The notes below the pieces were generated by a model. It searched no databases and had not been told where the DNA came from. It was given only the letters and a program-made list of their open reading frames with translations. This document shows positions 1-33,973 of a DNA stretch of 64,000 bases, piece after piece. This DNA is from Micavibrio sp. UBA2638 (lineage in GTDB: Bacteria > Pseudomonadota > Alphaproteobacteria > Micavibrionales > Micavibrionaceae), in assembly GCA_002359735.1 (NCBI GenBank), contig DENS01000018.1, positions 52,819-116,818 of the forward strand, read 5' to 3'. The position numbers and the translations under genes were made by a program. How positions within the stretch are numbered: position 1 is the first letter of the stretch; the number at the start of each line of letters is the position of its first letter.

Positions 1-142
1 AATACTTGTGTGATATCGGGTTGTATATACGCCATATCGGCTGGCCGGAGTTATCATGTCCTGCTTCATATAGTTTTATGGCTGGGTTCAGGCTTGGTAT
101 AGGAATGGTTGATAGATCGGGCTTTTTATGATCGGTTGTCAT
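1..142 (-). CDS. 5' end of a gene running off the left edge; N-terminus resembles M50 (site-2 protease) family membrane proteins that accompany paired HlyD genes
   Basis: Own translation of the minus strand from ATG 142-140 gives MTTDHKKPDLSTIPIPSLNPAIKLYEAGHDNSGQPIWRIYNPISHKY, open to the window edge. It begins 10 nt after the stop of 153..1481. The family call rests on a remembered N-terminal pattern (G-x-P-x-W-x-x-Y-[ND]-P). The catalytic HExxH would lie outside the window. Confidence 0.4.
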   Translation of the reverse strand, partial: MTTDHKKPDLSTIPIPSLNPAIKLYEAGHDNSGQPIWRIYNPISHKY

Positions 143-152
143 GATGTGTCAG

Positions 153-1481
153 TTAAAACCCTGTAATATTACGCAAAGCGATGAGTGGGCGCCGTAATAC
201 CGAATATCCAAGAATGCTCCATTGGCTGTATATTTTGGCAGTGCCCTTCCATCCAATGCGTAAATCTTGATTGTTATCCAATTGGGCGCGTATTTTATAA
301 GTAAGTAAGCCATCTGGATCAGGGCTGGCCTGGTATGCTGTGTTAAGGGTAGAGCCTTGGTAATTACTGAGCGGGGCTGTGTTGGCAAAAAAGGATACCG
401 CGGCCTTTTCATCCAGGTCTAACATTGCATCAACCGGCACCCTGATTAATAACACCAGTGTTGCCGGGTTGGCGATTGTCATGATTTTGTCTCCGGCGTT
501 TACTGGTTGGCCTTCCAGCGCGCTTGTGTCGGCAAAGACGGCTATACCATCTTGTGGGCTCGTGATTATGCTGCGTTCTAATAGGCTTTGAGCGTAATTA
601 TATTCGATTTGCCGCGATTTTATTTCTGCATTCAGACGGCTGATTTCTGATTTTTTCTGTGGATCGGAAAGGGATTCGCGGCGCGCACGAGAAAGGCTGA
701 TCTGGGCCAATTCTAGGGCCTGTTTGGCGCTTTGCGCCTCGGATTTCAGGGCCTCTCTATCCAGTTTAACCAGAGAATCCCCCTCTTTAACGCTGGAGCC
801 CGGCTTAATATCAATGGTATCAATAATACCTTGAAAAGGGGCCGTTATGGTTTTGCTGTCTTCAGCAATAACTTCGGCAGGCGCTGTAATGCTTAGTTTG
901 ACTGGGATGAAGAAAGCTAGAACCAGCAAGGCTGCTATAAGTTTCTTTGTTTTGTTATTAAGGGTTAATGATGAAAACAGGCCCTTTCGGCCGCGATAGT
1001 GTTGTAACCCAAGTGCATGGGAATAAATTTCACCAATTTCTTCAAGGATTGCGCGCTCGGGCTCGGCAAAGGGAGTCTCTCTTTGCAGGAGTAAGCAGCC
1101 AAGGCGGCCTTCTTCCTGAGTTTCCAGTATAACAACCAGATTATGTGTTCTCTCTATTAAAGCCCATTTGTCTTGAAGTGTTGGCGGGATGTGCTCTGGC
1201 TTTATTTCTATTATGCTTTGGGCTTTGTTTTTATTCGGCGCGGGCGATGCATGATCCAGTATGGCTTTTAAAATATCTGCATGAGGGCTTTGCGGGTCAA
1301 TCGAGGCGTTGCCGGAAACAGCGGCAGATTTAAGCGTATCACCTCGGTATAGCAGAAGAACGGCTTGGTCGTAGGAAACCAGATCCAGCGTTTTGTTCAC
1401 AATATGGAAGGCTGCCTCATCGGTGCTTTTTGCCTGAAGGACCAGCTTGTTTAGATGGAAAAGTGTTAAAAGTTTATCCAT
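153..1481 (-). CDS. HlyD-family membrane fusion protein with an N-terminal GAF-like cytoplasmic domain
   Basis: 442-aa ORF. Residues ~1-165 look GAF-like (LGCLLLQRETPFAEPERAILEEIGEIYSHAL). One TM follows (LIAALLVLAFFIPV), then an MFP layout: lipoyl half (APFQGIIDTIDIKPGSSVKEGDSLVKLD), a short coiled coil, a second lipoyl half (IITSPQDGIAVF) and a beta-barrel. Confidence 0.8.
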   Translation of the reverse strand: MDKLLTLFHLNKLVLQAKSTDEAAFHIVNKTLDLVSYDQAVLLLYRGDTLKSAAVSGNASIDPQSPHADILKAILDHASPAPNKNKAQSIIEIKPEHIPPTLQDKWALIERTHNLVVILETQEEGRLGCLLLQRETPFAEPERAILEEIGEIYSHALGLQHYRGRKGLFSSLTLNNKTKKLIAALLVLAFFIPVKLSITAPAEVIAEDSKTITAPFQGIIDTIDIKPGSSVKEGDSLVKLDREALKSEAQSAKQALELAQISLSRARRESLSDPQKKSEISRLNAEIKSRQIEYNYAQSLLERSIITSPQDGIAVFADTSALEGQPVNAGDKIMTIANPATLVLLIRVPVDAMLDLDEKAAVSFFANTAPLSNYQGSTLNTAYQASPDPDGLLTYKIRAQLDNNQDLRIGWKGTAKIYSQWSILGYSVLRRPLIALRNITGF

Positions 1482-1487
1482 ATCGCC

Positions 1488-3263
1488 CTATGGTGAGTTG
1501 GCAGGAATGCGGTCATTGCTGGAGTAGCGAGGTTCTTCCAGAAAGCCTTTGATTCCGGCGTTTCTGATAGCGGCAATATTAAGATGTACGTTGCCGCTCA
1601 TGCCCGGCAGTAAAGGCGTTGTATACGGGGATAATTTGGCGCTCATCTGTATGGATTGGCTAACGGGATCAACTTCGCCATGAATGCGCTCAATCTTAGC
1701 CTCGTAAGTTTCGCCGGTTTCTGTGATGCTTAAGGTCAGCGGGGCGCCAACATTGACCCAGCGCAACCAGCGTGAGGGTACCAGAAACTCAATCTCAAGG
1801 TCATCCAGGGAAGCAACTTCCATTAAAACACGATCAGAGCGCGTATATTCATGTGGGTTGGCCAAACGGTTGGTCACACGCCCATCATATGCCGCCCGGA
1901 TATAGCATTGCTCCAGCTTGCTTTCGATGATTTTGGCCTGTCCTTCGGCTTTTATATCTTCGGTTTTAATGCCTAGATGTTCTATGTCGGATATAATGTC
2001 GAGGTTTAAAAGTTTTTCATGACGCATGGTGCGTTTTTGCGTGAAATCTTTTTCGGCCTCTGCAATTTCCATCTCCGCCTTTAAATCCTTACATTCATAT
2101 TCAACAAGAATATCACCTTTACGGAACATATCCCCGTTTTCAAAATGAATGGCGGCGATTTTACCGTCTTTGCTGGATGATATGACGGTCGCTTTTTGTG
2201 GCACCAGGACGCCTTCTATATTCAGTTCGTTATCTTCAATATTATATTTGTAATGCTGCACTTGTGCCTCGGCCTCTGGTGTGGGACCGGGGTTTTCTTC
2301 AGGCTTTTCTTTTTTATTTTCAGACTTGCCGGAGCTTGACGGACGGTCATCTTGGAATAGGACGCGTTCATTATCAACTTGGGTGGTTTTAAAATTCCCT
2401 TCGTCACCAGCGGCCGGTTCGATCATTGTAATGGCCGATGCATTTGCGACCGGAAGTGTAGGAAGGGGTAAATCCGGCCATTTGAATGATGCGACAATGT
2501 TTTCAATGCTTTGAGCCGCGTAGCTTTGTAGGGCAAGAACATGATTTTTAATGCTCTGGCCCAAATCATATAGGTAATCAGGAATGGCGCTGATGAAAGA
2601 GAATGGTTTTAATGCGGCTTGCTTTATGCCGTCTATGTTTATGTCCGGTATTTCAGGAACACTAACAGTCGGCATTGTAATGTCTGGCCATTCAACTTCT
2701 GGTAAACTGGGAATTTTTATCCAGTCTTGCACTTGTACCTTTGGCAGTTCGGGTATTGAGTAAAATTTAATAGAGTGAATGTTCGGCAAGGATGGCAGGG
2801 GTAAGTCGGTACCGCGCCGTTTTATTGTTTCTGTGTCGGGTTTATACAAAGGGGCGTCAAAGGCTGTATTTTCCCATGAAAACTCTGGCCATGAAAATTC
2901 TGGTAATTTTATTTCTGGCCAGGATATGGGGGGCAAGGTGACGTCCGGCATGGAAACCTCGGGCATCGTCCAGGAATCAAATTGGGGAAGTTCGGGCCAT
3001 GATAGTGTGATATCTGGTAGTTCCGGCCATGAAAATTCCGTCACATCAATGGCGGGCATTAGCGGAGTTGGCGTTGCCGGGTTTTCAGCATGTTGTGTTT
3101 CCGAATGACCGGGCTTGGAACCCTTCTCGGCAAAAAATGTAGCGGAGGACACATAGTCACTCAGGATAATGTTTTTATCGTGCAGGTAATATCCGCAGGA
3201 TGCGCCGTACACAATGACGCTTCCCATCAACAGGGCTATGGCTTTGGCCTTCCTTGTGATCAT
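1488..3263 (-). CDS. HlyD-family membrane fusion protein with a long W-P-[ED]-x-P repeat region
   Basis: 591-aa ORF with an N-terminal TM (AIALLMGSVIVYGASCGYY), a repeat region at aa 68-272 and a low-complexity linker (SSSGKSENKKEKPEENPGPTPEAEAQ). The C-terminal MFP core includes VISSSKDGKIAAIHFENGDMFRKGDILVEY ... IRAAYDGRV. Its start overlaps the upstream stop by ATGA (3260-3263). Confidence 0.8.
   Translation of the reverse strand: MITRKAKAIALLMGSVIVYGASCGYYLHDKNIILSDYVSSATFFAEKGSKPGHSETQHAENPATPTPLMPAIDVTEFSWPELPDITLSWPELPQFDSWTMPEVSMPDVTLPPISWPEIKLPEFSWPEFSWENTAFDAPLYKPDTETIKRRGTDLPLPSLPNIHSIKFYSIPELPKVQVQDWIKIPSLPEVEWPDITMPTVSVPEIPDINIDGIKQAALKPFSFISAIPDYLYDLGQSIKNHVLALQSYAAQSIENIVASFKWPDLPLPTLPVANASAITMIEPAAGDEGNFKTTQVDNERVLFQDDRPSSSGKSENKKEKPEENPGPTPEAEAQVQHYKYNIEDNELNIEGVLVPQKATVISSSKDGKIAAIHFENGDMFRKGDILVEYECKDLKAEMEIAEAEKDFTQKRTMRHEKLLNLDIISDIEHLGIKTEDIKAEGQAKIIESKLEQCYIRAAYDGRVTNRLANPHEYTRSDRVLMEVASLDDLEIEFLVPSRWLRWVNVGAPLTLSITETGETYEAKIERIHGEVDPVSQSIQMSAKLSPYTTPLLPGMSGNVHLNIAAIRNAGIKGFLEEPRYSSNDRIPANSP
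2448..3062 (-). repeat. Degenerate tandem peptide repeats (SWPELP / SWPEIKLP / EWPDITMP / KWPDLPLP) inside the 591-aa MFP
   Basis: The protein string reads EFSWPELPDITLSWPELPQFDSWTMPEVSMPDVTLPPISWPEIKLPEFSWPEFSWEN ... EWPDITMPTVSVPEIPD ... KWPDLPLPTLP. At DNA level there are recurring tc[tc]ggccatgaaaattc[tc]g units, e.g. near 2881-2900 and 3021-3040. Confidence 0.75.
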
Positions 3264-4696
3264 GATCCAGCCTCCGTCGCGCGGTGGAGGGGGCGCCCCA
3301 GGGTATTCAGGAGCGAGGACAGGGCATCTTGCATTTCGGCATGCATTTGCAGGGCCTTAATCTTTTCCTGTTGTGCCTGTAATATAATGGGCAGAGAATT
3401 ATTCCCGGAGCTTAGGCCCTGTTTTCTTTCTGTTTCGGCTTTGCGTGCATTTTCAGCCGCAACGCGTGAAGATCGCTTCGCATCTTTATAATCTTCCATG
3501 GTAATGTCCAGCCTGCGTTGGGCTAGGTGAACTTGAGCCATAATTGCGGCGATAAGGGAAAGGCGCCTTGCCTCCCCTAGTGTTTCAATGTTTTTTGCCG
3601 CGCGGTGCCGTGCGGGTAAGGTAAACAGGGCGCTGAGGCTTTGTGAAAGACTGGCCGAAAAACTGAGCCAGTCTTGATCGTATAGAAATTGATTGCTATC
3701 GCGATTTGATGCAAAGAATAATTCTGCCCCGGGCATTGTGCGCAGTATAGTATTGCGCGTGTTTTGCGCGTCTATATTTTTTTGTAATACAGTTTCTTTA
3801 ACTTCGGGGCGATTATACAGCGCCTCTTTTTCCAGAGCCTCTATATCGGATTGCAACAATGATCGGGCCAATTGATCCTGGTCATTTGGTTTTGAGGTCA
3901 GAATTATTTTTGTTTTCTGAGGAATTGACAATAGGCTTTTCAATTCGATATCGGCGTAAGTTAGCTCGGCATCCAGGGCCTTGAGGGCCTGTAACTGCTG
4001 CAAGATACCTTGTTTCAAACTGGCGGCCTTGCTTGCAGATATGAAAGAATTTTGATCAGCCTTAGTAATGTTGCGCAGTTGCTGATCGGCTTCCGCAATC
4101 AGGGCCTTTGTTTCTTGGGTGGTTCTTTGATACGCATAGGCGCGCCAATATGCGGCATGAACATCTCTTTCAATATTTTGCAGAACTTTTTCATGGCGCT
4201 GTTGTGCGATTAGTGTTTCATCTTTGGCAATGCGGCTATTGGCAACGGCCAGCATGAAATTCAGAATATTCCAGTTTACACTGATTTCCGATGTGTCGTG
4301 ATAGCGCTCAGTTGAGAATGAAGGCTCCAGTGACTCCCTGCCTGTGACGATCGATCGGCTGGAGCTTGCGCCGGCATTGCTGCGCCCATAACGCGTACTG
4401 GTGATATTGAGGTTGGGTATAGCCTCAAGGCGGGCGATGTCAATGTCATCTTCTTTACTCAGCATTTCCAGTGCGGAAACTCTGGCATCCAGATTATGGG
4501 CGATAGCGCGTTTAAGGGCCTCAGCATAAGATAGGCTTATTTGCTCTGATGCATCCTGATCCAGAACGTTTTGCCGGTCCAGTTCGATCATCTGGCTGTG
4601 CGCGGAACTGCCCAGCTCTATGCGGTCGGCAGTGCAGGCATTCAATAGAATGCAGGCGCTTAGCAGCAAAGGAAGTGTGTGTAATGAATGCGTCAT
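3260..4696 (-). CDS. TolC/NodT-type outer membrane factor lipoprotein
   Basis: 478-aa ORF with a signal peptide and lipobox (LLLSACILLNAC). It has two OEP-like repeats rich in coiled-coil Ala/Gln/Leu. It is the first gene of the four-gene minus-strand operon. Confidence 0.85.
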   Translation of the reverse strand: MTHSLHTLPLLLSACILLNACTADRIELGSSAHSQMIELDRQNVLDQDASEQISLSYAEALKRAIAHNLDARVSALEMLSKEDDIDIARLEAIPNLNITSTRYGRSNAGASSSRSIVTGRESLEPSFSTERYHDTSEISVNWNILNFMLAVANSRIAKDETLIAQQRHEKVLQNIERDVHAAYWRAYAYQRTTQETKALIAEADQQLRNITKADQNSFISASKAASLKQGILQQLQALKALDAELTYADIELKSLLSIPQKTKIILTSKPNDQDQLARSLLQSDIEALEKEALYNRPEVKETVLQKNIDAQNTRNTILRTMPGAELFFASNRDSNQFLYDQDWLSFSASLSQSLSALFTLPARHRAAKNIETLGEARRLSLIAAIMAQVHLAQRRLDITMEDYKDAKRSSRVAAENARKAETERKQGLSSGNNSLPIILQAQQEKIKALQMHAEMQDALSSLLNTLGRPLHRATEAGS

Positions 4697-5293
4697 GAAC
4701 CGACTTTGTAAAATACAGGCGAATGCCCAATAGAAACTATACCCATGCTAATTGTAATGGAAACTGTAGTGTTTACAAAGGTTTGAAAGCTGGTTTTCTA
4801 GAAAAAATGTTAAATTTGTTGATAACTTTTTTTTGTGCGGTTGCCAAGTGCCGTGATAAATGAATTGCGAATCTGTTTTTTAGGCGGCTTTATATGAAAT
4901 TTCAATGATTGCTGCGGCTTTCAGGGGGCGAGTCTATGTGATTGTAATTTCTTTATGTTGAGCTTAAATTTTTTCTTCTATTTCTCATAAATTTAAGCAG
5001 TAAGAATACAATCCCTGATAAAATCAATGACCGTAAATGCGTGCAAAACTAAATCTTTCGCTTGGCTTGTTGGGGATTTTAGGGTATTATTCCTATCATT
5101 CAGTACGCGCTGCGCATGAGGGCACCCCCCCCACCCCCGCTAAAAATGACGAACGAACTGACGAACCTTATTATTCGTTTGTTTTCAATGCCTTACGCGG
5201 AACGTTTTCGCGCTCCGCAACGCATGCGGTGAGCCGGTCGAGGAATGTGAGATCCAGTTTTTATGGATGGTGAAATTCATGGTTTATGCAGGC

Positions 5294-6235
5294 TTAATGG
5301 TGAACGCCGTGAACTTTGTGGCGTGTGTCATACGTGTCCCCCCTGGGGTCCTTGTGGATCAAAATTTCAGCATTAGGAAATGCTTCCAGCAACGCAAATT
5401 CGATCTCACGCGAAATGGTATGGGCTTCGCGCAAGGATTGATCGGGGTCTAGTTCGATATCAAAGCTGATAATCAGGTTCATACCGCTGCGCCGGGTGCG
5501 TAGATCATGCATGCCGTAGACGCCTTTGAAGTTCTCGACGATGGAATGGATAAGATCGCGTTTGTCTTCCTCGATCTCGCGGTCCATCAGCATGTCGGCG
5601 GCTTTTTGCCCGATTTCGTACCCTGTCCAGCCGATATAAAGCGCAATCACAAAGCCGAGCAGGCTATCGGCCCAGATCATGCCGGTGAAATAATGGAAGC
5701 TGAGGCCAACAATAACTGCGCCGTTGATCAGGACGTCATTCATGTAATGGCGCTGGTCGGCTTCTATGGCCAGAGACTGGGTTTTCTTAATGGCGCGGTG
5801 TTGCACGCGTATTAGAATGACGCTCAAGATCACGGCAACCACAGAGACGCCAATCCCCAGGGCATGGTGTTCGATCGCTTCCGGCCGGAGCAGCCGGCGT
5901 CCTGATTCAAAGATCAGAAACACGCTGGCGCCGATCAGGAAAGAGGCTTGCAGCATGGCCGAGAATCCTTCGACTTTTCCATGGCCGAAACGGTGGTCTT
6001 TATCGGCGGGCATCAGGGAAATGCGGATGCTGGCAAGTGTAATCAGGGATATGACCCCATCACCCAGCGTATCGGTGAGGGAGCCGAGCAGCGCCGCCGA
6101 GCCGCTAAGGTAATACGCGATTGTTTTAATGATAACGAGAATAAGCACCGTACCGAGCGCCCAATAGGCGGCAAAGAGCGTATGCGTGCGCGTGCCCGCG
6201 GCGTAATCTTCGGCTTCATTGTTCTTGTAAATCAT
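5294..6235 (-). CDS. Cation diffusion facilitator (CDF) family divalent-metal efflux transporter (FieF/YiiP-like)
   Basis: 313 aa with six TM segments, metal-site Asp/His (SLTDTLGD ... HYMNDVLING) and a C-terminal cytoplasmic domain (GVYGMHDLRTRRSG). Confidence 0.9.
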   Translation of the reverse strand: MIYKNNEAEDYAAGTRTHTLFAAYWALGTVLILVIIKTIAYYLSGSAALLGSLTDTLGDGVISLITLASIRISLMPADKDHRFGHGKVEGFSAMLQASFLIGASVFLIFESGRRLLRPEAIEHHALGIGVSVVAVILSVILIRVQHRAIKKTQSLAIEADQRHYMNDVLINGAVIVGLSFHYFTGMIWADSLLGFVIALYIGWTGYEIGQKAADMLMDREIEEDKRDLIHSIVENFKGVYGMHDLRTRRSGMNLIISFDIELDPDQSLREAHTISREIEFALLEAFPNAEILIHKDPRGDTYDTRHKVHGVHH

Positions 6236-7356
6236 TTCGGTTTCTTTTTGCTTTTGATGGCTTCGATTTTTTCATCAAAGACACGGGAGATGGAATAAAG
6301 GAATTCTCCGTGCAAGTCCACCGTATCTTCTATACCAATTTTTTCGTAGTTTGCGGTGAGCCAGTTTTTCATGGTCTGGCGGCCCAAATCGCGCAGTTTA
6401 ATAAGAAAGTCCCAGTCGGAATCAAATTTGCTGGAAACGCCCAGGCCTTGCAGGGCATCATCGGCGCGGATGGAATGTACCAGAATATCTTTGAAATCGT
6501 CCTGGTATTCGTCTTTAAGCATCTTATTCTCGACCAGTTTTTTGACAAAAGAAATCGAGCGCATTTCCTTCAGCAGCGAGCCATTGAAGGAAATTTCATT
6601 GATGCGGTCGATAATGCCGGCGGCATCGGTGGGTGTTTCTGAAATTTCGATCGGGTTGATATGCACGATCATCAAATCGTTGCTTTTGGTGTCGTAATAG
6701 AGCGGGAATAGAGCGGGATTACCGGAATAGCCGCCATCCCAGTAATCTTCGCCGTCAATACTAACCGCTTTGAACACATAGGGCAGGCAGGCCGAGGCAA
6801 GCACGACATCCATGCTCAGCTCGTCCGTTGTAAAGATGCGGACTTTGCCGGTTTTGACGTGGGTGGTGCTGATATAAAGTTTAATGCAATCACAAGCCTT
6901 AATGGCATCAAAATCAATGACTTTTTGTAGCACGTCTTTGAGCGGGTTAAAATCAAATGGATTGGTTTGATAGGGAGAGAACATCCGTGTGAAGCTGTCC
7001 ATGGCGTGAAAAAACGGATTTTCGCCGCTAAAGAAATTATTCCCCATCATAAAATTTTCCCATGGGGTGTTTTTGAAGGGGGAATAGCCTGTGCCGCCGT
7101 AATCATGCACTTTCCACCAGAACTTTTCGAGTGTTTCGCGTGCTTTTTCCGGCCCGCCCAGTTGCAGTCCGTACGCAAAAGCACAGGCATTCATGGTTCC
7201 TGCGGATGTGGCGCTGATGGCTTCGACATGCAAACGACCATCTTCCAGCAAATAATCCAGCACGCCCCAAGTGAACGCCCCGTGCGAGCCGCCGCCCTGC
7301 AGCGCGAGATTGATGGTTTTTTGTCCAGGCTTTGGCGTGTTGGGTGTATCGCTCAT
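6232..7356 (-). CDS. Patatin-like phospholipase family protein
   Basis: 374 aa. It has the oxyanion motif LALQGGGSHGAF, the nucleophile elbow SATSAG and a downstream DGG (YWDGGYSGNP). Its stop overlaps the CDF start by 4 nt. Confidence 0.9.
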   Translation of the reverse strand: MSDTPNTPKPGQKTINLALQGGGSHGAFTWGVLDYLLEDGRLHVEAISATSAGTMNACAFAYGLQLGGPEKARETLEKFWWKVHDYGGTGYSPFKNTPWENFMMGNNFFSGENPFFHAMDSFTRMFSPYQTNPFDFNPLKDVLQKVIDFDAIKACDCIKLYISTTHVKTGKVRIFTTDELSMDVVLASACLPYVFKAVSIDGEDYWDGGYSGNPALFPLYYDTKSNDLMIVHINPIEISETPTDAAGIIDRINEISFNGSLLKEMRSISFVKKLVENKMLKDEYQDDFKDILVHSIRADDALQGLGVSSKFDSDWDFLIKLRDLGRQTMKNWLTANYEKIGIEDTVDLHGEFLYSISRVFDEKIEAIKSKKKPK

Positions 7357-7400
7357 TGCTTTAATATAGGCGATTGAAGATCAAAGGGAAATGAAAGACT

Positions 7401-9293
7401 TTAGGCGGTTTTCATGTCTTCTAATTCCAGCCACCGCGTTTCATAGCGGTCCAGTTTTAATTTGGCCTCTTCCAGCGCTTTGACGGCTTCGTGGAAACCA
7501 TCGGCATCGCGGCTGTAGAAATCTGGATCAGCCAATTGATTGTTTAATGCGCTAATTTCCTGTTCGACTTTTTTTATTTTCTCAGGCAGCTTTTTATATT
7601 CATGCTCCAGCTTATAAGTCAGGCGCGTGCGCGTTTTCTTTGCAGGGCCGGGCGCTGTATAGGTGGCTGGTTCATTATTTTGATTATGACTCGTTTTGCT
7701 GTCTGCTTTGTTTGTTTTCTTTTGGGGTTCTGTTTTCTTATGAGTGGGTTTTTGCTCACTCTGGGCTTGTTTTTTAGCCAGATAATCGCTGTAGCCGCCG
7801 ATTTGTATCTCAACTTTTCCATCCCCCTCAAAGGCCATGATTTTGGTTACGGTTTGATCAAGAAAATCACGGTCATGCGAAACCACAATCAAGGTTCCTT
7901 TGTAATTGGATAGAATTTCCTCCAGCATATCCAGCGTGTCCATGTCCAGATCATTGGTGGGTTCATCCAGTATCAGGCAACTTTTGGGGTTGGCCAGAAT
8001 GCGGGCCAACATCAGCCTGTTTTTTTGTCCGCCGGATAATTGGGATACTTTGTCCTGAGCGCGTGACGGATCAAACATAAAGTCTTTTAAATACCCGCAA
8101 ACATGGCGTTCTTTGCCCATAACGTTAATGTAGTCGTTGCCTGTCGGGGAGAGTACTTTTTTCAAGGAATCTGTTGGGTCCAGATCAGAACGTTTTTGAT
8201 CAAAATAAGAAAATTCCAGTTCTTTGCGAACTTTCACCCGCCCTTGATCGGCTTCCAGTTCTCCTATTAGGAGCTTTAAAAATGTTGTTTTCCCGGAACC
8301 ATTTTTCCCAATGATGCCAATACGTTCTCCGCGCTGGATACGGGTGGAGAATTTATTGAGGATGGAAATCGTGCCGCCATCTTCGTTGGTGAAATTTTTA
8401 TGGACGTTATAAAATTCAGCCACGACTTTAGAGTGTTGATCCACTTCTTTCGGGGCTTTAATATTAATCTTTTGCGTGGCCCGGCGATAGGCGGCTTCAT
8501 CGGCCTCAAGCTGGGCGCGCATTTCTTTAACTTGTTCCAGGCGGCGAACATTTCTTTTGACACGTGCTTTAACGCCGCGGCTGGCCCATGCTACCTCAAG
8601 ACCAACGGCTTGTTTGCGGTTTTTTAACTCGCGGGCCTCTTGTTCCAAAAGCTCTTCCGACCATTCTTCGAAATATTTGAAACCCCGGGGGGAGACCCTA
8701 AGGCGCCCTCTATCCAGCCAAAAAACCTGATTGGTGATGTTGGATAGAAAGGTACGGTCGTGCGAGATCACGAGCAGCGTACCACGGTAGCTATTTAAAT
8801 ACCCTTCCAGCCACTCAATAACATCCAGGTCAAGGTGGTTTGTTGGTTCGTCTAATAAAAGTATATCTGGCTCTTCAACAAGTGCGCGTGCCAGTCCCGC
8901 TCGTCGTAGTTGCCCGCCAGATAGCGTGGTCATATAGGCTTTTGGATCAATTTGCAGGGCTTCGGTTACGATATCAACCTTATATGCGTATAGTTCTTTG
9001 TCTTCATCTTTGATTTCTTCAAAGATATAATCAAAGACGCGCACGCCCTCCAGGGGGATGATATCCTGCTTTAGATAGCCGACTGTAAGGCCTGGGGCCT
9101 CCCAGCGGTCACCTTCCATCATATCCTGTGTGCCGGTGATGATGTTCATTAATGTGGTTTTTCCCGCCCCGTTTTTGCCAACCAAAGCAATGCGTGTGCC
9201 TTCATGGACATTGAAAGACAGGTTCTCAAAAACCGGTGTTTCCGTGTAACGGACATGAGCATCTTTGATTTGCAATAGGAGCGGTGGCGGCAT
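7401..9293 (-). CDS. uup: ABC-F family ATPase (Uup-like: two ABC domains plus a C-terminal coiled-coil tail)
   Basis: There are two Walker A motifs (GKNGAGKTT, GKNGSGKTT) and two LSGGQ signatures. A basic linker and a C-terminal coiled coil are present. The ORF is open to 9353, but Met-21 (MPPPLLLQIKDAHV, cat at 9291-9293) fits the family N-terminus better. Confidence 0.85.
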   Translation of the reverse strand: MPPPLLLQIKDAHVRYTETPVFENLSFNVHEGTRIALVGKNGAGKTTLMNIITGTQDMMEGDRWEAPGLTVGYLKQDIIPLEGVRVFDYIFEEIKDEDKELYAYKVDIVTEALQIDPKAYMTTLSGGQLRRAGLARALVEEPDILLLDEPTNHLDLDVIEWLEGYLNSYRGTLLVISHDRTFLSNITNQVFWLDRGRLRVSPRGFKYFEEWSEELLEQEARELKNRKQAVGLEVAWASRGVKARVKRNVRRLEQVKEMRAQLEADEAAYRRATQKINIKAPKEVDQHSKVVAEFYNVHKNFTNEDGGTISILNKFSTRIQRGERIGIIGKNGSGKTTFLKLLIGELEADQGRVKVRKELEFSYFDQKRSDLDPTDSLKKVLSPTGNDYINVMGKERHVCGYLKDFMFDPSRAQDKVSQLSGGQKNRLMLARILANPKSCLILDEPTNDLDMDTLDMLEEILSNYKGTLIVVSHDRDFLDQTVTKIMAFEGDGKVEIQIGGYSDYLAKKQAQSEQKPTHKKTEPQKKTNKADSKTSHNQNNEPATYTAPGPAKKTRTRLTYKLEHEYKKLPEKIKKVEQEISALNNQLADPDFYSRDADGFHEAVKALEEAKLKLDRYETRWLELEDMKTA

Positions 9294-9445
9294 GGCTGTG
9301 TTGTACCGTGTGTGGTGGGGGACTGCAAATATTTTTTTAATTCGGGGGGGCACTCATTTTGCGGGCGGCAGACGAAATCAGCACGTCGCCGCGGCGTATG
9401 CATGGTTTAATAGATGATGCTGTGGCATCACAGTAATAGACGGGC

Positions 9446-20551: not shown

Positions 20552-22167
20552 GTATATTAATGCGAACAAAATTTCGATCGGCGAGTATGGGGGCCTTTAT
20601 GCTGGGAAGTGTTTTTCTGGCGGGCAATGCGACTGCGCAAGATACTGATGTGTCTGATAAAATTTCCGGGCCGGAAACTAGGCAGGATGAGCCAGTTATT
20701 CGGATGACCTTGCCAAATTTGACCAATCATCCTTTGGCCGGCGGCATCGTATTGCAACGATTATGTGCGACAGATGGTCTTGATGAAAAAAAATGTGATG
20801 ATGTAGAGGTCTTTATTGAACCGCCAGCGTTGGAAAATCCATTGGGGCAGGTAATTCATGCCTTCAGACGGGAATTGGCGGTGGATGATTTAGACGCCGC
20901 GCCGAGGGTGGCTGACGATCTGCAAACCTTTATTAATGAACGCGGCGGGGAATTTGATAACCCGCAATCGTTGACGCGTTTGATTGAAATTCAGCAAGAT
21001 CTGGATCAGGGAATTAAAGCGCAGGATTTGGATATTCTTGATCAGGTCGTGCAGGATTTCTGGACGCTGATTGTGCAATTGGAAGAAGATATGCTGAGCG
21101 AGGCTGAAAAGGCGTTACGCGATGCGCAAGAGGCATTGAAAAAGGCTCTGGAAGAGGGCGTTAGTGAAGAGGAGTTGAAAGAGCTGCGTGAACAGGCGGA
21201 ACAAGCCATGCAGGACTTTATGGAGGAGCAGCTGCAAAAAGCTGAAGAAAATCAACTCAGCCCGGAAGATAAGGCGGCCTTGGAAGATATGCAGAAAATG
21301 ATGGAAGAACTGCAAAAAATGATGGAAAAAATGGGCCTGAGCCAAGAAGAAATGGCCAAGTTGATGCAGGAAATGATGCAGCAAGCCCAGCAAAGCCAGC
21401 AGAACCAGCAGGGGCAATCGCAAAGTGGCGAGCAGCAGGAGATGGACTATCAGAAAATGTTAGAGCAGATGCAGCAAAAAATGCAGCAGATGCAGCAGAT
21501 GCAGCAGAATATGAATGACCTAAAAGACATTATGGAGGATCAGAAAAATCTGCGTGAAGAAACATTCAATGAAGCCCTGCAAGATAATAAGGATCAGCAG
21601 CAAAACCAAAATCAACAACAGCAACAGCAAGATCAACAGCAACAGCAACAAAGTCAGTCGCAGCAAAATCAAGATAGACTGTCGCAAAAACAAGAGGAAA
21701 TCGCCAAAAAGTTGGAAGAGTTGTTGAAAAAGATGCAGCAGCAAAACCAGGATCCCAGTGAGCTTGAAAAAGCCAGGGAAGCCATGCGGCGCGCGCTCGA
21801 GGATTTGAAGAACGGTGAGGAAGGGCAAGCTGTTCCCGATCAGGATGAGGCGCTGGAGTCTATGAATAATGCGCAAAAGCAAATGCAGAAGCAGATGATA
21901 CAGCAGATGATGCCGGGCGGGCCGGGCCCTAGCGGTACTGGCCCCGGTTCCATGCCGACAGCATTACCGCCGCGTGATGTTCCGGGGGTGGATAATGATG
22001 GCCGTATACGGGAATCTGGAAACCCGAATGATAATTTAAACATATCGCCGGGTGAAAGTGGACAAGAGCAAAAACGGGTCCGTGATCGTATCCGCCGTCA
22101 AATTGACAAAGGCGGCAGTGAGTATCTGGAACATCTTTTAAATGGCAGTGACGGCCCGGATCTATAG
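20548..22167 (+). CDS. C-terminal-half homologue of DUF4175/TIGR02302 (alphaproteobacterial Gln-rich low-complexity protein), here with its own signal peptide
   Basis: 539 aa. The ATGA start overlaps the DUF58 stop. The signal-like N-terminus is SMGAFMLGSVFLAGNATAQ. Blocks remembered from the C-terminal part of full-length DUF4175 proteins are present: LTNHPLAGG, FWTLIVQLEE, VSEEELKELREQAEQAMQDFMEE, a poly-Gln tract, and the terminal SEYLEHLL. Confidence 0.7.
   Translation: MSILMRTKFRSASMGAFMLGSVFLAGNATAQDTDVSDKISGPETRQDEPVIRMTLPNLTNHPLAGGIVLQRLCATDGLDEKKCDDVEVFIEPPALENPLGQVIHAFRRELAVDDLDAAPRVADDLQTFINERGGEFDNPQSLTRLIEIQQDLDQGIKAQDLDILDQVVQDFWTLIVQLEEDMLSEAEKALRDAQEALKKALEEGVSEEELKELREQAEQAMQDFMEEQLQKAEENQLSPEDKAALEDMQKMMEELQKMMEKMGLSQEEMAKLMQEMMQQAQQSQQNQQGQSQSGEQQEMDYQKMLEQMQQKMQQMQQMQQNMNDLKDIMEDQKNLREETFNEALQDNKDQQQNQNQQQQQQDQQQQQQSQSQQNQDRLSQKQEEIAKKLEELLKKMQQQNQDPSELEKAREAMRRALEDLKNGEEGQAVPDQDEALESMNNAQKQMQKQMIQQMMPGGPGPSGTGPGSMPTALPPRDVPGVDNDGRIRESGNPNDNLNISPGESGQEQKRVRDRIRRQIDKGGSEYLEHLLNGSDGPDL
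21375..21680 (+). repeat. Gln-rich low-complexity coding tract (CAG/CAA runs) including a perfect (ATGCAGCAG)x3
   Basis: It encodes QQAQQSQQNQQGQSQSGEQQ ... MQQMQQMQQ ... QQQNQNQQQQQQDQQQQQQSQSQQNQ. The 9-nt unit atgcagcag is repeated three times at 21481-21507. Confidence 0.9.
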
Positions 22168-22200
22168 GGCAGGTGTACAAAGGGGGCCATTGCGCGCATG

Positions 22201-22246
22201 TGGCACGGCTTTTTGCCTAAAATAATGGTCCGTGCCATGTTTTCTT
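22201..22246 (+). terminator. Possible terminator in the 100-nt gap between the convergent DUF4175 halves
   Basis: tggcacgg (22201-08) pairs with ccgtgcca (22230-37), followed by tgttttctt. The 21-nt loop is long, so this is tentative. Confidence 0.35.
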
Positions 22247-22267
22247 GGGTAATCTAAATGGAATTTA

Positions 22268-23422
22268 TTAAGGCTCAAGCGGAGCGAAGCTGATGGGGGC
22301 CTCAATAGGTGGAAGTTGCGCAGAGGGCAGTTTTGATGTTTTAAAGCTACCGTTTTCGCCTTGTATGCCCGTTTCTAATTGGGCGCTGGTAATGCCGTAA
22401 TCATCATCGAGTACATATTCCAAATCGTTTAGCGTCGGGTTATCGGCATCATTTTTAATGCCAAGAATGGTGACGGAGGGTGGGTTGTCCAGGGCAACTG
22501 AAAAATTCAGGTTATGCCCTTCAATATTAAGTGCGATAGTCTCATGTGATCCGTCAAATGAGATTGTGTATTGATATGCCAGGCTATCTGTCGTTGGGGG
22601 CGTGGCAGATTGCTTGTCATCGGGTTTTATGGCGCCGCCATTGAGTGTTATGCTTCCTGGGCGCTCTTGTGTCGTGATATAAAGGGTGCTGCCTTCATGT
22701 ACATCAAGAACTGACTGGTTTTCGATTGCGTGTTGTATCATGTCAGGAAGATATCCTTGCGCGCTATCGATGTTTTGTGGCGGTGTAATCCAAGCCTTAT
22801 ACATTAATGGCGGCGGCGGGGCCTGCCAATGTAAGGCTTCATTGAATTTGCTGAAAGCACCATCGCCATATAGCCCACCAGTGATGGCGGTTGCAACTAG
22901 AATAGATGTGTGGATGGCCGCTTTGGGTTTGTTGTCCTTATAGTATGCTCCAAAGCCTGATCCGAGTTTTTCGCTCTCAATCTTTTCTGCCCATTCTTTC
23001 CATATACGTTTTTGCGCGAGTTCAAAAATTTGTTGTGAAGGTTTGGAATCGCCTTTGCTGGGTTCATCGTCCAGTTTTTTTGCGGGGGTTTCTTGAGCCG
23101 CGATGTCGTCGTCAATAGCGCGGATCGCCTCTTTTCGGTTTGCGAATGGACGTTTGTCTGCGCGCACAAAGCTGTTGGTCAGGGAGTATGCGGTCGTTAG
23201 AAGGCTTGCTGCTCCTGCGGCCATGACGGCCATTTTTTGTCCTTGCGGAGGAAGGTGGTCCCAAAGGCCGATCAGAGCTGTGAATGCGCCGCCACTGACC
23301 AATGCGGGCGGCATAACCATGGGGACAATTTTTTCATTGATCATTGACCATTTACGGCGGCTAACCGCTTTGTTAAAGCGTCCTTTAATTTCGTTAATGC
23401 TCAAATCCTGTTGTTCATTCAT
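22268..23422 (-). CDS. N-terminal-half homologue of DUF4175/TIGR02302 (TM helices plus first periplasmic region)
   Basis: 384 aa with two or three TM segments (MVMPPALVSGGAFTALIGLW, MAVMAAGAASLLTTAYSL, ILVATAITGGLYG). WQAPPPPLMYKAWITPPQ, DNPPSVTILG and LDDDYGITSAQLE parallel remembered N-half blocks of DUF4175 proteins. Confidence 0.65.
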   Translation of the reverse strand: MNEQQDLSINEIKGRFNKAVSRRKWSMINEKIVPMVMPPALVSGGAFTALIGLWDHLPPQGQKMAVMAAGAASLLTTAYSLTNSFVRADKRPFANRKEAIRAIDDDIAAQETPAKKLDDEPSKGDSKPSQQIFELAQKRIWKEWAEKIESEKLGSGFGAYYKDNKPKAAIHTSILVATAITGGLYGDGAFSKFNEALHWQAPPPPLMYKAWITPPQNIDSAQGYLPDMIQHAIENQSVLDVHEGSTLYITTQERPGSITLNGGAIKPDDKQSATPPTTDSLAYQYTISFDGSHETIALNIEGHNLNFSVALDNPPSVTILGIKNDADNPTLNDLEYVLDDDYGITSAQLETGIQGENGSFKTSKLPSAQLPPIEAPISFAPLEP

Positions 23423-23432
23423 GCCGCTTACC

Positions 23433-24401
23433 TTATGCCCCCAATTCGGGTGATGGGTATTGTTTGTTTACGTTCCGCATTGCCGCGAATTGTCTGCACT
23501 GAAATTGCTGGCACTGATACGGGTCTTGTATATCCAGGCTGGCCGTTTGCATGATGACTTGCCGACGCATGGCCAAAAGAACCTCATCTTGATAGGCGGC
23601 CATACCGCCGGCATTGCCTCTGGTATTATTGATTTGTGTTTGGCGCTCGGTTGCAACTTCGTGCACAAAGCCGCCGGATAATGGGCGCCCATTTTTTTTG
23701 ATATAGGTATTCGGGGGTGTTATCAATGCGCGTTCGGCCCAGTAATTCAGATTGCCGTAATCTGTTTTTGTCGTTAATGCGTAAACCGTTGCTTCATGAT
23801 GTTCGGCTAGAATTTTATTCCATTCTCGCACTTTAACGGTGCTACTGGTCCCATCGGTCAATATGTTTAGGCTGTTATGCTCTGATTTCCAACGTGTTGC
23901 AAGATTTTGGAAACAATATCCTGCATTTTCCATGGCGCTGGCATGTTCCGTTCCGCCAGTACCTCTGCGTTGTATGTTCAGAATTTCTTGCGAGAAGCGT
24001 AAGAACTTTGTTCTGTCGTCATCTCTGAAATCGACCCAGGGAATGACAAGTTCCGAGCGATGGTCAAAATCGACAACGCATAATGCAATCGACTGCGGTC
24101 CGCCGGGGTAGAAGATGGATTCCCGGAAGTCATCTGATGCTATAGCGTTTGCCAGGGATTCAAGCTGAGCGCGGTATTCACCCGTTCTATCTTCAATGGA
24201 CCCGGAAATGTCGATGGCGCAAACGATGGCCATACCAATATCTTCGTTGCTGTTTGTTGCCAGTGTCGGGTGAAAATAGGTGGTTGTTGGAACCACTGTA
24301 GGAGGTTCTTCGTAGTAATTTGGTTGCCCAAATGCTCTGCTGCTTGCAAGCGTTAAAAGCCCCGCCCCAGCGCCAAGTAAAAATTGTCGTCTGTTAAGCA
24401 C
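23433..24401 (-). CDS. DUF1194-like vWA-fold protein with a twin-arginine signal
   Basis: 322 aa with a Tat motif (MLNRRQFLLGAGAGLLTLASSRAFG). A MIDAS-like segment reads AIVCAIDISGSIEDRTGEYRAQLESLANAI ... IALCVVDFDHRSELVIPW ... GGTEHASAM ... NILTDGTS. Its stop lies 10 nt before the start of 22268..23422. Confidence 0.7.
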   Translation of the reverse strand: MLNRRQFLLGAGAGLLTLASSRAFGQPNYYEEPPTVVPTTTYFHPTLATNSNEDIGMAIVCAIDISGSIEDRTGEYRAQLESLANAIASDDFRESIFYPGGPQSIALCVVDFDHRSELVIPWVDFRDDDRTKFLRFSQEILNIQRRGTGGTEHASAMENAGYCFQNLATRWKSEHNSLNILTDGTSSTVKVREWNKILAEHHEATVYALTTKTDYGNLNYWAERALITPPNTYIKKNGRPLSGGFVHEVATERQTQINNTRGNAGGMAAYQDEVLLAMRRQVIMQTASLDIQDPYQCQQFQCRQFAAMRNVNKQYPSPELGA

Positions 24402-24505
24402 GATGTTAGTCCCTGTTCATTGCCAGATTTTCATCTGTCATAATTATTTTTTAATAGATCGCACCTTAGAGACTTTTTTAAGGAAATACAATGATTTTTA
24501 TTTCC

Positions 24506-25126: not shown

Positions 25127-25146
25127 AAATTTTTACTCTCGCTTGG

Positions 25147-25175
25147 TTGACAGCATACATACATAAATGTATGTT
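25147..25175 (+). promoter_or_regulatory. Sigma70-like promoter (TTGACA-17-TATGTT) overlapped by an 8-2-8 perfect palindrome, the likely TetR operator
   Basis: TTGACA at 25147-52 and TATGTT at 25170-75. The palindrome ACATACAT-AA-ATGTATGT spans 25157-25174. Confidence 0.5.
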
Positions 25176-25270
25176 TATACTATAGCGTTACATTATATGT
25201 TTGTCTAGTTTGTAGCTACAGTCATATTCGGCTGCTTTATTCGCAGGGGTCTATAAAAAAGGTATTGAAG

Positions 25271-26470: not shown

Positions 26471-26482
26471 GGATACAGAAAA

Positions 26483-29623: not shown

Positions 29624-29625
29624 CG

Positions 29626-31116: not shown

Positions 31117-31142
31117 CGATTTCACGCAAGTTTTTGTCTTTA

Positions 31143-33959: not shown

Positions 33960-33973
33960 ATTTAATCTCCGGC

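What the first reader, a model, noticed from the sequence alone, without database searches (positions are those of the whole stretch)
1..4696. OMF + two membrane-fusion proteins + M50/S2P-like protein: a tripartite-style envelope operon with no recognisable pump
Four same-strand genes are packed tightly: an ATGA overlap at 3260-3263, then gaps of 6 nt and 10 nt. They encode a TolC/NodT-type lipoprotein (lipobox LLNAC) and two different HlyD-type adaptors. The next gene begins at 142 with MTTDHKKPDLSTIPIPSLNPAIKLYEAGHDNSGQPIWRIYNPISHKY. I associate that N-terminus with M50 (site-2-protease family) polytopic proteins found next to paired HlyD genes. The visible part of the operon has no ABC, RND or MFS component. 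The inner-membrane slot of a TolC-dependent machine may therefore be filled by an intramembrane-metalloprotease-like protein. As far as I know, the function of this arrangement has not been established experimentally.
Basis: partly seen in the sequence, partly recalled or inferred. Interest (0 to 1): 0.72.

Follow-up and report, generated by a model that had tools for sequence, protein, structure and literature searches.

The report
Pump-less TolC machine for giant protein
The four genes are real and belong to a widespread, unstudied five-gene module in which a leader-binding membrane protease fused to a periplasmic adaptor replaces the usual pump of a TolC-type machine, and a giant signal-less surface protein encoded next door is its likely cargo.

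Summary
The minus strand carries a TolC-family gene (3260-4696), two different HlyD-type adaptor genes (1488-3263 and 153-1481) and a fourth gene that starts at 142. The ATGA overlap and the 6-nt and 10-nt gaps are as described.

Identical metagenome contigs extend the fourth gene to 722 aa. It has three parts: a leader-peptide-binding (RRE/PqqD-like) domain, an M50/site-2-protease-like membrane domain with invariant HExxH and NxxPxxxxDG, and a third HlyD adaptor.

The next gene encodes a 3308-aa cadherin-repeat protein. It has no cysteine, no hydrophobic segment and no RTX repeats. Its N-terminus carries a basic stretch followed by LEKRLMFDAS.

In 80 related loci from Proteobacteria and Nitrospira, the only conserved neighbour of the cassette is such a giant gene with an N-terminal LE-x-R-x-x-F-D-A (LEPR-XLL) motif. 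No ABC, RND or MFS pump is conserved. On E. coli plasmids the five genes lie directly between IS elements.

Best reading: an ABC-less, type-I-like machine that recognises, probably cleaves, and exports or tethers the giant protein. The energy source is unknown. Ten literature searches found no description of it.

The parts
3260..4696 (-). Outer-membrane factor (TolC/NodT-type, 478 aa), probably a lipoprotein. First gene of the cassette.
   Evidence: ORF. Pfam OEP 3.6e-21 with two stretches. One N-terminal hydrophobic segment at residues 5-23 containing LLSAC and LLNAC. An orthologue occupies the same position in 38 of 63 related loci with enough upstream sequence.
1488..3263 (-). Adaptor MFP-A (591 aa). 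It has an N-terminal membrane anchor (residues 6-24), a proline-rich spacer with WPE(L/F)P-like motifs (about residues 60-340), and an HlyD/RND_mfp core (347-566).
   Evidence: (TIGR01730 RND_mfp 117.4 bits, cut-off 94.9). Orthologues are 238-526 aa, so the spacer is clade-specific.
153..1481 (-). Adaptor MFP-B (442 aa). It has a cytoplasmic GAF-like domain of about 170 aa, one transmembrane helix (181-199) and an HlyD core (199-418).
   Evidence: Pfam GAF or GAF_2 matches 7 and 2 of 35 orthologues, best E-value 2.5e-5, but not the window's own protein. It lies directly upstream of the M50 fusion in 57 of 63 loci.
1..142 (-). First 47 codons of the 722-aa RRE-M50-HlyD fusion gene. The rest lies beyond the left edge of the window (L006 10001-12169, L001 11340-13508).
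   Evidence: Pfam Peptidase_M50 at 194-337 and HlyD_D23 at 453-627. NCBIfam daptide intramembrane metalloprotease 7.8e-46 over residues 41-397. AlphaFold2 model with pLDDT 93. The N-terminal domain matches lasso-peptide RRE proteins bound to leader peptides.
4697..5293 (.). 597-nt non-coding stretch upstream of the OMF gene, the likely promoter region of the operon.
   Evidence: No ORF on the operon strand. Sigma-70-like hexamers on the minus strand at 4778-4751 and 4763-4736, but such sites are no more frequent here than in shuffled sequence.

Best explanation
The four genes and the gene that follows them outside the window form one conserved five-gene module.

Components (shown by sequence and models):
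- A TolC-family outer-membrane channel.
- Two single-pass HlyD-type adaptors, one with a cytoplasmic GAF-like domain.
- An inner-membrane protein with three parts: a cytoplasmic leader-peptide-binding RRE domain, an M50/site-2-protease-like membrane domain with intact catalytic motifs, and a third periplasmic adaptor.
- A giant, acidic, cysteine-free cadherin-repeat protein with no signal peptide and no hydrophobic segment. Its N-terminus carries a basic stretch followed by LE(K/P)R(L/I)M(F/L)DA(S/A).

Proposed mechanism (inferred):
1. The RRE domain binds the N-terminal leader of the giant protein in the cytoplasm.
2. The M50 active site cuts the leader at the inner membrane.
3. The three kinds of adaptor, all with alpha-hairpins of similar length, build a mixed periplasmic tube that docks to the TolC-like channel.
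4. The giant protein crosses both membranes in one step, as in type I secretion, but without an ABC transporter.

Not established: the energy source (candidates are proton-motive force or calcium-driven folding of the cadherin-like repeats outside the cell); the direction of threading; and whether leader cleavage accompanies export or later releases a surface-tethered protein.
For: Architecture:
- The fourth gene is 722 aa on identical contigs.
- Pfam gives Peptidase_M50 32.1 bits against a cut-off of 27.2, plus HlyD_D23 and HlyD_3 in the C-terminal part.
- H204, E205, H208, N298, N300, P301, D306 and G307 are invariant in 120 homologues.
- The AlphaFold2 model has pLDDT 93.
- The C-terminal part matches MacA, MexA and EmrA at E about 1e-13 and HlyD of the type I system by sequence (8dck, 7e-15).
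- Residues about 20-100 match TbiB1 and another lasso-peptide RRE protein solved with their leader peptides (probability 1.00, TM-score 0.72-0.74 on the target).
- The closest named family is the daptide RRE-dependent intramembrane leader peptidase MpaP (7.8e-46; paper 10.1101/2023.03.08.531785).
- Another M50 enzyme, EpeP, is thought to both cleave and export its peptide (PMC10885120).

Cargo link:
- The only family conserved next to the cassette in 77 loci is the giant proteins, present in 52 loci.
- At least 40 of 80 loci show a giant ORF with the N-terminal motif. A further 17 have a giant gene upstream of the OMF whose N-terminus is cut off by the locus edge.
- The motif occurs 40 times in the first 260 residues of 1003 ORFs and once elsewhere, where about one is expected.
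- NCBIfam LEPR-XLL (NF012209) passes its cut-off on a Pseudomonas orthologue.
- This organism's giant protein has no cysteine, no hydrophobic segment and no signal peptide.

No pump:
- An ABC-like ORF lies within five genes of the fusion in 1 of 63 loci.
- Flanking genes in the closest clade are housekeeping genes.
- On E. coli plasmid NZ_CP060066.1 the order is giant, TolC, adaptor, adaptor, fusion, with an IS5 remnant directly upstream and IS1 directly downstream.
- The same order is found in Azospirillum brasilense Sp7.
Against: - No component with an evident energy source (ATPase or known proton-driven transporter) belongs to the module. Moving more than 3000 residues across two membranes without one has no precedent.
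- An unlinked ABC transporter cannot be excluded, because whole genomes could not be searched.
- The M50 membrane domain found no solved S2P structure by fold search (best non-RRE hits E > 0.5). By sequence it gave only a weak match to 3b4r (E 0.007).
- The RRE match has a weak Foldseek E-value (0.06), despite probability 1.00.
- The window's own giant protein is not detected by the LEPR-XLL model. Its motif is assigned by eye and by alignment with orthologues.
- About 20 of the 80 loci show no giant gene within 10 kb. Some of these are short contigs, but several are not.
- The giant proteins also carry conserved C-terminal motifs. These could be classical C-terminal type I signals read by a transporter encoded elsewhere.
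- The region downstream of the giant gene in this organism was not seen.
Confidence: 0.55

Rival explanations
1. The cassette only processes, regulates or tethers the giant protein. Translocation is powered by a classical type I ABC transporter (or another pump) encoded elsewhere. In one version the RRE holds the N-terminal leader at the inner membrane while the protein, threaded C-terminus first, spans the envelope. M50 cleavage, perhaps controlled through the GAF-like domain, then releases it, much as LapG releases LapA.
For: - The module has no energy-coupling component.
- The giant proteins have conserved extreme C-terminal motifs, for example FxDVLTYHEQRQxxLRxAL in the Micavibrio-like clade. 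Type I secretion signals are C-terminal (established knowledge; PMC5018854 abstract).
- The composition is acidic and cysteine-free, as in type I substrates.
Against: - The module brings its own OMF and three adaptors, which an accessory protease would not need.
- It moves as a five-gene unit between IS elements on E. coli plasmids.
- Known giant-adhesin type I systems keep ABC, adaptor and OMF genes next to the cargo (LapA/LapBCE; knowledge, not tested here). Here an ABC-like gene is near in 1 of 63 loci.
Confidence: 0.2
2. The cassette matures and exports a small ribosomal peptide (RiPP or bacteriocin-like), as MpaP and EpeP do. The neighbouring giant gene is an unrelated passenger.
For: - The closest named families are RiPP leader peptidases: daptide MpaP at 7.8e-46 and YydH/LiaK at 9.5e-7.
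- The RRE domain is typical of RiPP pathways.
- Databases name the family 'putative peptide zinc metalloprotease'.
Against: - No small ORF family and no RiPP-modifying enzyme is conserved next to the cassette.
- A six-frame search for the leader motif in loci without giant genes found nothing.
- The motif is found only at the N-termini of the large neighbouring proteins.
- The score is far below the daptide family cut-off (157 against 300 bits).
Confidence: 0.1
3. The M50-like membrane domain has lost protease function. It acts as a novel proton-driven transporter for small molecules, making this an ordinary tripartite efflux pump with an unusual inner-membrane component.
For: - All three adaptors resemble drug- and metal-efflux adaptors.
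- RefSeq annotates all of them as efflux adaptors.
Against: - The zinc-binding and catalytic motifs are invariant in 120 of 120 homologues.
- A leader-binding RRE domain has no role in small-molecule efflux.
- The giant cargo-like gene is tightly linked.
Confidence: 0.05

Closest known systems
Type I secretion systems, especially those for giant adhesins (HlyB-HlyD-TolC; LapB-LapC-LapE with LapA)
   Same: - An envelope-spanning OMF plus HlyD-type adaptors. The fusion's adaptor part is closest by sequence to HlyD of the solved HlyB/D complex (8dck and 7sgr).
- The cargo is a giant, acidic, cysteine-free repeat protein without a Sec signal, encoded next to the machine.
   Different: - No ABC transporter or ATPase.
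- Three different adaptors instead of one.
- The inner-membrane component is an RRE-M50 protease.
- The cargo lacks RTX GGxGxD repeats.
- The cargo carries a conserved N-terminal motif in addition to a C-terminal one.
RRE-dependent intramembrane site-2 proteases of RiPP pathways (daptide MpaP, NF041824; epipeptide EpeP/YydH)
   Same: - An N-terminal RRE fused to an M50 membrane protease.
- These enzymes remove an N-terminal leader from a ribosomal product.
- EpeP is thought to couple cleavage with export (PMC10885120).
   Different: - Those are Gram-positive enzymes of about 250-380 aa acting on short peptides, with no adaptor domain and no OMF.
- Here the score is below the family cut-off (157 against 300 bits).
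- Here the protein carries a C-terminal HlyD adaptor.
- The presumed substrate has more than 3000 residues.
- No RiPP-modifying enzymes are nearby.
Peptidase-containing ABC exporters of bacteriocins working with an adaptor and TolC (colicin V CvaA-CvaB-TolC; from established knowledge, not tested here)
   Same: The logic is the same: an N-terminal leader is recognised and cut by a protease domain that is part of the inner-membrane exporter, and the product leaves through adaptor plus TolC.
   Different: - The protease there is a cytoplasmic C39 cysteine peptidase fused to an ABC transporter that supplies ATP energy.
- Here it is an intramembrane zinc protease with no nucleotide-binding domain.
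Tripartite efflux pumps (MacAB-TolC, AcrAB-TolC, EmrAB-TolC)
   Same: - The adaptor folds match MacA, MexA, EmrA and AcrA at E 1e-13 to 1e-10.
- The OMF is of the OEP family.
   Different: - No ABC, RND or MFS inner-membrane pump.
- One adaptor is covalently fused to the inner-membrane component.
- There are three paralogous adaptors.
- The system is linked to a protein cargo.

Membership tests
Peptidase M50 / site-2 protease (PF02163) | HExxH zinc-binding motif within a transmembrane helix | tested here: met
   HEFGH at residues 204-208 inside model helix 187-214. H204, E205 and H208 are invariant in 120 homologues.
Peptidase M50 / site-2 protease (PF02163) | Second motif NxxPxxxxDG, which supplies the third zinc ligand | tested here: met
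   NLNPLMRFDG at 298-307. N298, N300, P301, D306 and G307 are invariant.
Peptidase M50 / site-2 protease (PF02163) | Profile score above Pfam's gathering threshold | tested here: met
   32.1 bits against 27.2, E 9.3e-8. Only profile positions 3-106 of 221 are matched.
Peptidase M50 / site-2 protease (PF02163) | Fold similarity to solved S2P structures | tested here: inconclusive
   Foldseek of the 1-438 model found no S2P entry; the best non-RRE hits have E > 0.5. A profile search gave 3b4r at E 0.007 over the HExxH helix only. The model does show a beta-hairpin (222-235) after the HExxH helix, as in S2P proteases (the comparison is from knowledge).
Peptidase M50 / site-2 protease (PF02163) | Proteolytic activity | not testable with these tools
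   Needs biochemistry or genetics.
Daptide-type RRE-dependent intramembrane peptidase (NF041824, MpaP) | Equivalog score above the curated cut-off | tested here: not met
   156.9 bits against a cut-off of 300. It is a relative, not a member.
Daptide-type RRE-dependent intramembrane peptidase (NF041824, MpaP) | N-terminal RRE (PqqD-like) domain fused to the protease | tested here: met
   Beta3-alpha3 topology at residues 23-96. Foldseek hits to TbiB1 with leader peptide (5v1u, 5v1v) and 6jx3_B: probability 0.99-1.00, TM-score on the target 0.68-0.74, E 0.06-0.34. RefSeq labels distant relatives 'PqqD family protein'.
Daptide-type RRE-dependent intramembrane peptidase (NF041824, MpaP) | Neighbouring short precursor peptides and modifying enzymes | tested here: not met
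   No such conserved neighbours in 77 loci.
Type I secretion system | Inner-membrane ABC transporter with a nucleotide-binding domain | tested here: not met
   None in the operon. An ABC-like ORF lies within five genes in 1 of 63 loci. None in the E. coli plasmid module. The rest of the genome was not searched.
Type I secretion system | HlyD-type membrane fusion protein and TolC-type OMF | tested here: met
Type I secretion system | Cargo with C-terminal secretion signal and RTX repeats | tested here: inconclusive
   No GGxGxD repeat. There is a clade-conserved C-terminal motif of unknown role.
Membrane fusion protein / HlyD family | Barrel-sandwich (lipoyl-like) domain, alpha-hairpin and beta-barrel | tested here: met
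   All three proteins hit HlyD_3 and HlyD_D23. The fusion model shows a hairpin at 488-546 and matches MacA and MexA.
Outer membrane factor (OEP, PF02321) | Two OEP repeats | tested here: met
   E 3.6e-21 with two stretches.
LEPR-XLL domain proteins (NF012209), for the cargo | N-terminal LEPRxLL-type motif scoring above the cut-off | tested here: inconclusive
   The window organism's cargo (DLEKRLMFDAS) is not detected by the model. A Pseudomonas orthologue scores 19.8 against 17, and a Nitrospira orthologue scores 13. The motif aligns by position across at least 40 loci.
RND, ABC or MFS tripartite efflux pump | A pump of one of these families as the inner-membrane component | tested here: not met
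   The RND pump at 25265-31116 has its own adaptor and OMF.

The most novel reading that the evidence does not exclude
This is a new kind of one-step protein secretion system in Gram-negative bacteria. Giant surface proteins would be targeted by an N-terminal LEPR-type leader that is bound by an RRE domain and cut by an intramembrane M50 protease. They would then pass through a tube of three different adaptors and a TolC-like channel with no ATPase, driven by proton-motive force or by calcium-dependent folding outside the cell. This would also give the widespread LEPR-XLL/DUF4347 giant proteins their missing sorting machine. It would extend leader-peptide (RRE) recognition, so far known for small RiPP peptides, to proteins of thousands of residues.
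Probability: 0.35. Interest if true: 0.9.

Novelty: new variant of a known kind. Interest (0 to 1): 0.78.

Why it matters
- Every tripartite TolC-dependent machine described so far is built on an ABC, RND or MFS motor (review PMC8277102). A large family that puts an intramembrane protease in that position raises the question of how it is energised.
- The family has at least 4,371 clusters at 50% identity with E <= 1e-30. It is found in more than 580 species genomes, including Pseudomonas, Azospirillum, Cupriavidus, Nitrospira and E. coli plasmids.
- It offers a concrete, testable partner for giant LEPR-XLL/DUF4347 proteins, whose export route is unknown.
- It links RiPP-style leader recognition to protein secretion.
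- The module is present on E. coli plasmids and in the model bacterium Azospirillum brasilense Sp7, so the question can be tested directly by genetics.
- In a Micavibrio-like predator, such a surface giant could matter for attachment to prey.

Tried and rejected
- **Metagenome DNA scan.** A 50-nt exact pattern from the JGI contig was used to try to reach the DNA beyond the giant gene. It found nothing.
- **Homologue search with the giant protein.** The first 400 aa returned only fragments, not the 3308-aa protein. The contig downstream of it could therefore not be fetched. What follows the giant gene in this organism remains unseen.
- **Fold search with the full-length model.** Adaptor structures swamped the results. 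A second model of residues 1-438 was needed.
- **GAF domain check.** A PDB profile search with MFP-B orthologues did not confirm the GAF domain. The GAF-like call rests on Pfam hits in 7 of 35 orthologues.
- **Promoter and terminator scan.** Counts were no higher than in shuffled sequence.
- **The nearby RND pump as the missing motor.** The RND pump at 25265-31116 was rejected as the missing motor because it has its own adaptor and OMF.
- **The ABC-F gene at 7401-9353.** This gene was rejected as a transporter because it has no membrane segment.
- **AAA+/DUF6638/DUF2333 gene set as an energy source.** Some Rhizobiaceae-group loci carry this set. It is in only 3-4 loci, so it is not a general component.
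- **Literature.** Ten searches found no paper on M50-HlyD fusions or on LEPR-motif protein secretion.

Full report
**1.

On the minus strand of the window lie three complete genes and the start of a fourth:
- OMF, 3260-4696, 478 aa.
- MFP-A, 1488-3263, 591 aa.
- MFP-B, 153-1481, 442 aa.
- A fourth gene whose ATG is at 142.

The 4-nt ATGA overlap and the 6-nt and 10-nt gaps are exactly as described. Pfam assigns OEP to the first gene (3.6e-21) and HlyD_3 and HlyD_D23 to the next two. MFP-A also passes the NCBIfam RND_mfp cut-off. The two adaptors differ in build:
- MFP-A has an N-terminal anchor and a long proline-rich spacer.
- MFP-B has about 170 cytoplasmic residues, one membrane helix at 181-199, and then the adaptor core.

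The OMF N-terminus has two candidate lipoboxes, LLSAC and LLNAC.

**2. The fourth gene**

Looking up MFP-B by exact sequence found the same operon on several marine (TARA) metagenome contigs of up to 151 kb. There the fourth gene is 722 aa. A 99%-identical copy is annotated in a MAG named Micavibrio sp..

Pfam finds Peptidase_M50 at residues 194-337 (32.1 bits, cut-off 27.2) and HlyD_D23 and HlyD_3 at 453-627. NCBIfam's best match is the daptide biosynthesis intramembrane metalloprotease (7.8e-46, residues 41-397, below the family cut-off), followed by adaptor families.

In an alignment of 120 homologues, HExxH (H204, E205, H208) and NxxPxxxxDG (N298, N300, P301, D306, G307) are invariant.

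An AlphaFold2 model (pLDDT 93, pTM 0.80) shows four regions:
- A small beta3-alpha3 domain at residues 23-96.
- A helical membrane domain, about 137-436, with a beta-hairpin at 222-235 just after the HExxH helix.
- A complete adaptor with a hairpin at 488-546.
- A final helix.

The adaptor part matches MacA, MexA and EmrA (E about 1e-13) and, by sequence, HlyD of the type I system.

A second model of residues 1-438 gave only one meaningful set of fold matches. These were the lasso-peptide leader-binding proteins TbiB1 and 6jx3_B, both solved with their leader peptides (probability 0.99-1.00, TM-score 0.68-0.74 on the target, E 0.06-0.34).

The protein is therefore RRE - M50 protease - HlyD adaptor. 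The daptide paper describes exactly such an RRE fused to an intramembrane site-2 protease as an RRE-dependent leader peptidase (10.1101/2023.03.08.531785). A review notes that the M50 enzyme EpeP is thought to both cleave and export its peptide (PMC10885120).

**3. The fifth gene**

Ninety-three bases after the fusion gene starts a 3308-codon gene, of which 3302 codons were read. It is full of Cadherin_3, Cadherin and Cadherin_4 repeats. It has no cysteine and is rich in T, D, G and N. It has no RTX nonapeptide and no hydrophobic segment, so it has no Sec signal or membrane anchor. It begins MDGIRKKSIKIKDLEKRLMFDASLGAL.

**4. Comparative evidence**

The best 80 loci were kept. They come from Alpha-, Beta- and Gammaproteobacteria, Nitrospira and Micavibrio-like bacteria.

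My own ORF calling and phmmer labelling gave the following for the 63 loci with enough upstream sequence:
- OMF, MFP-A, MFP-B and fusion in that order: 38 loci.
- MFP-A, MFP-B and fusion: 48 loci.
- MFP-B and fusion: 57 loci.

These counts are lower bounds, because spurious opposite-strand ORFs in GC-rich genomes displace real genes.

Clustering all neighbouring ORFs showed a single family conserved across clades: giant proteins, present in 52 loci. They lie either just after the fusion gene or just before the OMF gene. All other neighbour families are confined to 8 loci or fewer.

Where the N-terminus of the giant protein is visible, it carries a basic stretch followed by (A/P)LE(K/P/S/Q/A)R(L/I/M/F)(M/L/A/V)(F/L)D(A/G)(A/S):
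- 37 ORFs by regular expression.
- Four more loci by six-frame scan.
- 17 further loci have a giant gene whose N-terminus is cut off by the locus edge.

The motif occurs 40 times in the first 260 residues of 1003 ORFs and once in the remainder, where about one is expected. It does not occur in the window's six frames.

NCBIfam's LEPR-XLL model passes its cut-off on the Pseudomonas version (19.8 against 17). It does not detect the Micavibrio-like version.

With a profile of the RRE and M50 part only, 4,371 cluster representatives at 50% identity score E <= 1e-30. The best 150 are almost all 690-750 aa, which means they are fused to the adaptor.

**5. No pump**

- An ABC-like ORF lies within five genes of the fusion in 1 of 63 loci.
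- In the closest clade, the genes beyond the module are housekeeping genes such as lspA, glyS, mutL and aconitase-like genes, judged from their N-terminal sequences.
- In A. brasilense Sp7 the order is DUF4347 giant (N-terminus MALEPRFMFDAAG), TolC, adaptor, adaptor, fusion.
- On E. coli plasmid NZ_CP060066.1 the same five genes, with the giant's N-terminus RFALESRQLFDGAA followed by DUF4347, sit directly between an IS5 remnant and an IS1 copy.
- The E. coli fusion gene is found at 99% identity or more in 24 of 5,426 complete E. coli genomes, mostly on plasmids.

A five-gene unit that travels on its own argues that it is functionally self-contained.

In the window itself, the only ABC protein is a soluble ABC-F. 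The RND pump at 25265-31116 is a complete separate system.

**6. Mechanism**

Shown:
- The domain composition.
- The intact catalytic motifs.
- The RRE-like fold.
- Three adaptors plus an OMF.
- The tight, cross-phylum linkage to a signal-less giant protein with a conserved N-terminal motif.
- The absence of a conserved pump.

Inferred:
- The RRE binds the leader.
- The M50 site cleaves it.
- The three adaptors form a mixed tube under the OMF.
- The giant protein leaves through it without an ABC motor.

Open:
- The energy source.
- The direction of threading.
- The role of the GAF-like domain of MFP-B, which is supported only by Pfam hits in 7 of 35 orthologues and not by the PDB profile search.
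- The role of the conserved C-terminal motifs of the cargo.

The main rival is that the cassette only processes or tethers the protein while an unlinked ABC transporter moves it. I give the dedicated export and processing model about 0.55, the accessory model 0.2, a small-peptide system 0.1 and a small-molecule pump 0.05.

**7. Comparison with known systems and novelty**

The system works most like a type I secretion system, and like bacteriocin exporters that cut an N-terminal leader during export. It fails the defining test of type I systems because it has no ABC transporter. Its inner-membrane component is a relative, not a member, of the RiPP leader peptidase family MpaP.

Databases annotate the genes generically, as 'HlyD family efflux transporter periplasmic adaptor subunit', 'site-2 protease family protein' or 'putative peptide zinc metalloprotease'. 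Ten full-text searches found no study of the fusion, of the cassette, or of the secretion of LEPR-motif proteins. I cannot exclude papers outside the held library.

I rate it a new variant of a known kind (tripartite, type-I-like machines). There is a substantial chance that it is a distinct secretion system.

**8. Limits**

- Only 47 codons of the key gene lie in the window. The rest comes from identical or 99%-identical contigs.
- Gene calling in the related loci was my own simple procedure.
- The DNA beyond the giant gene in this organism was not obtained.
- No complex modelling was possible.

Noticed in passing
window 25265-31116 (+ strand): A complete, canonical RND tripartite efflux operon. 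It has an adaptor (401 aa, HlyD_D23), an AcrB-family pump (1046 aa, ACR_tran 1288 bits) and an OMF (496 aa, OEP 8e-57). It is unrelated to the finding and is not the missing pump.
   Followed up: yes
window about 2240-3090 (MFP-A residues about 60-340): MFP-A has a proline-rich periplasmic insert with repeated WPE(L/F)P- and PE(I/V)-type motifs. Only a 15-nt unit repeated twice is visible at DNA level (2874-2903). Orthologues lack most of the insert; they are 238-526 aa against 591 aa here. Its role is unknown.
   Followed up: partly
L006 about 21800-22169 and the C-termini of giant genes in L009-L027: In the Micavibrio-like clade the giant proteins end with a conserved pair of motifs: YTNLRxALxFL, an acidic linker, then (D)RQFxDVLTYH(E/Q)xRQxxLRxAL. 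Enterobacterial and Pseudomonas versions share a different ending (FSGGSWK ... QLxxI). This may be a C-terminal signal or an anchoring element.
   Followed up: partly
L070, L074, L083, L087 (Pseudomonas) and L090 (A. brasilense Sp7, record 234912-237754): A GNAT acetyltransferase of about 167-190 aa and phage-tail-collar-domain proteins (annotated 'tail fiber protein') recur between the cassette and the giant gene. This suggests possible cargo modification or accessory partners in some clades.
   Followed up: partly
L019, L020, L036, L043 (Rhizobiaceae-group loci), downstream of the fusion gene: A conserved set of six genes follows the cassette. It includes an AAA+ ATPase (634 aa), DUF6638, DUF2333 and two coiled-coil proteins with no Pfam match. 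It is seen only in this subclade, so it is not a general energy source, but it could be an add-on.
   Followed up: partly
L091 and L092 (E. coli G5 plasmid NZ_CP060066.1, record 20836-38214): The five-gene module sits directly between an IS5 remnant and IS1 on an IncHI1B plasmid. It occurs at 99% identity or more in 24 of 5,426 complete E. coli genomes and on Citrobacter and Hafnia plasmids. It is therefore mobile among enterobacteria.
   Followed up: yes
N-termini of giant proteins (for example L006 12263-12340) compared with the daptide precursors described in 10.1101/2023.03.08.531785: The daptide leader motif ELExMEAP and the giant-protein motif LE(P/K)RxMFDA share an L-E...M...A pattern. 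This may reflect a common way of binding to related RRE domains, or it may be coincidence.
   Followed up: no
window 5294-9353 (- strand): The genes upstream of the operon are a cation-diffusion facilitator (313 aa), a patatin-like phospholipase (374 aa) and a soluble ABC-F protein (650 aa). They are conserved on the identical contigs but not in related loci, so they are not part of the module.
   Followed up: yes
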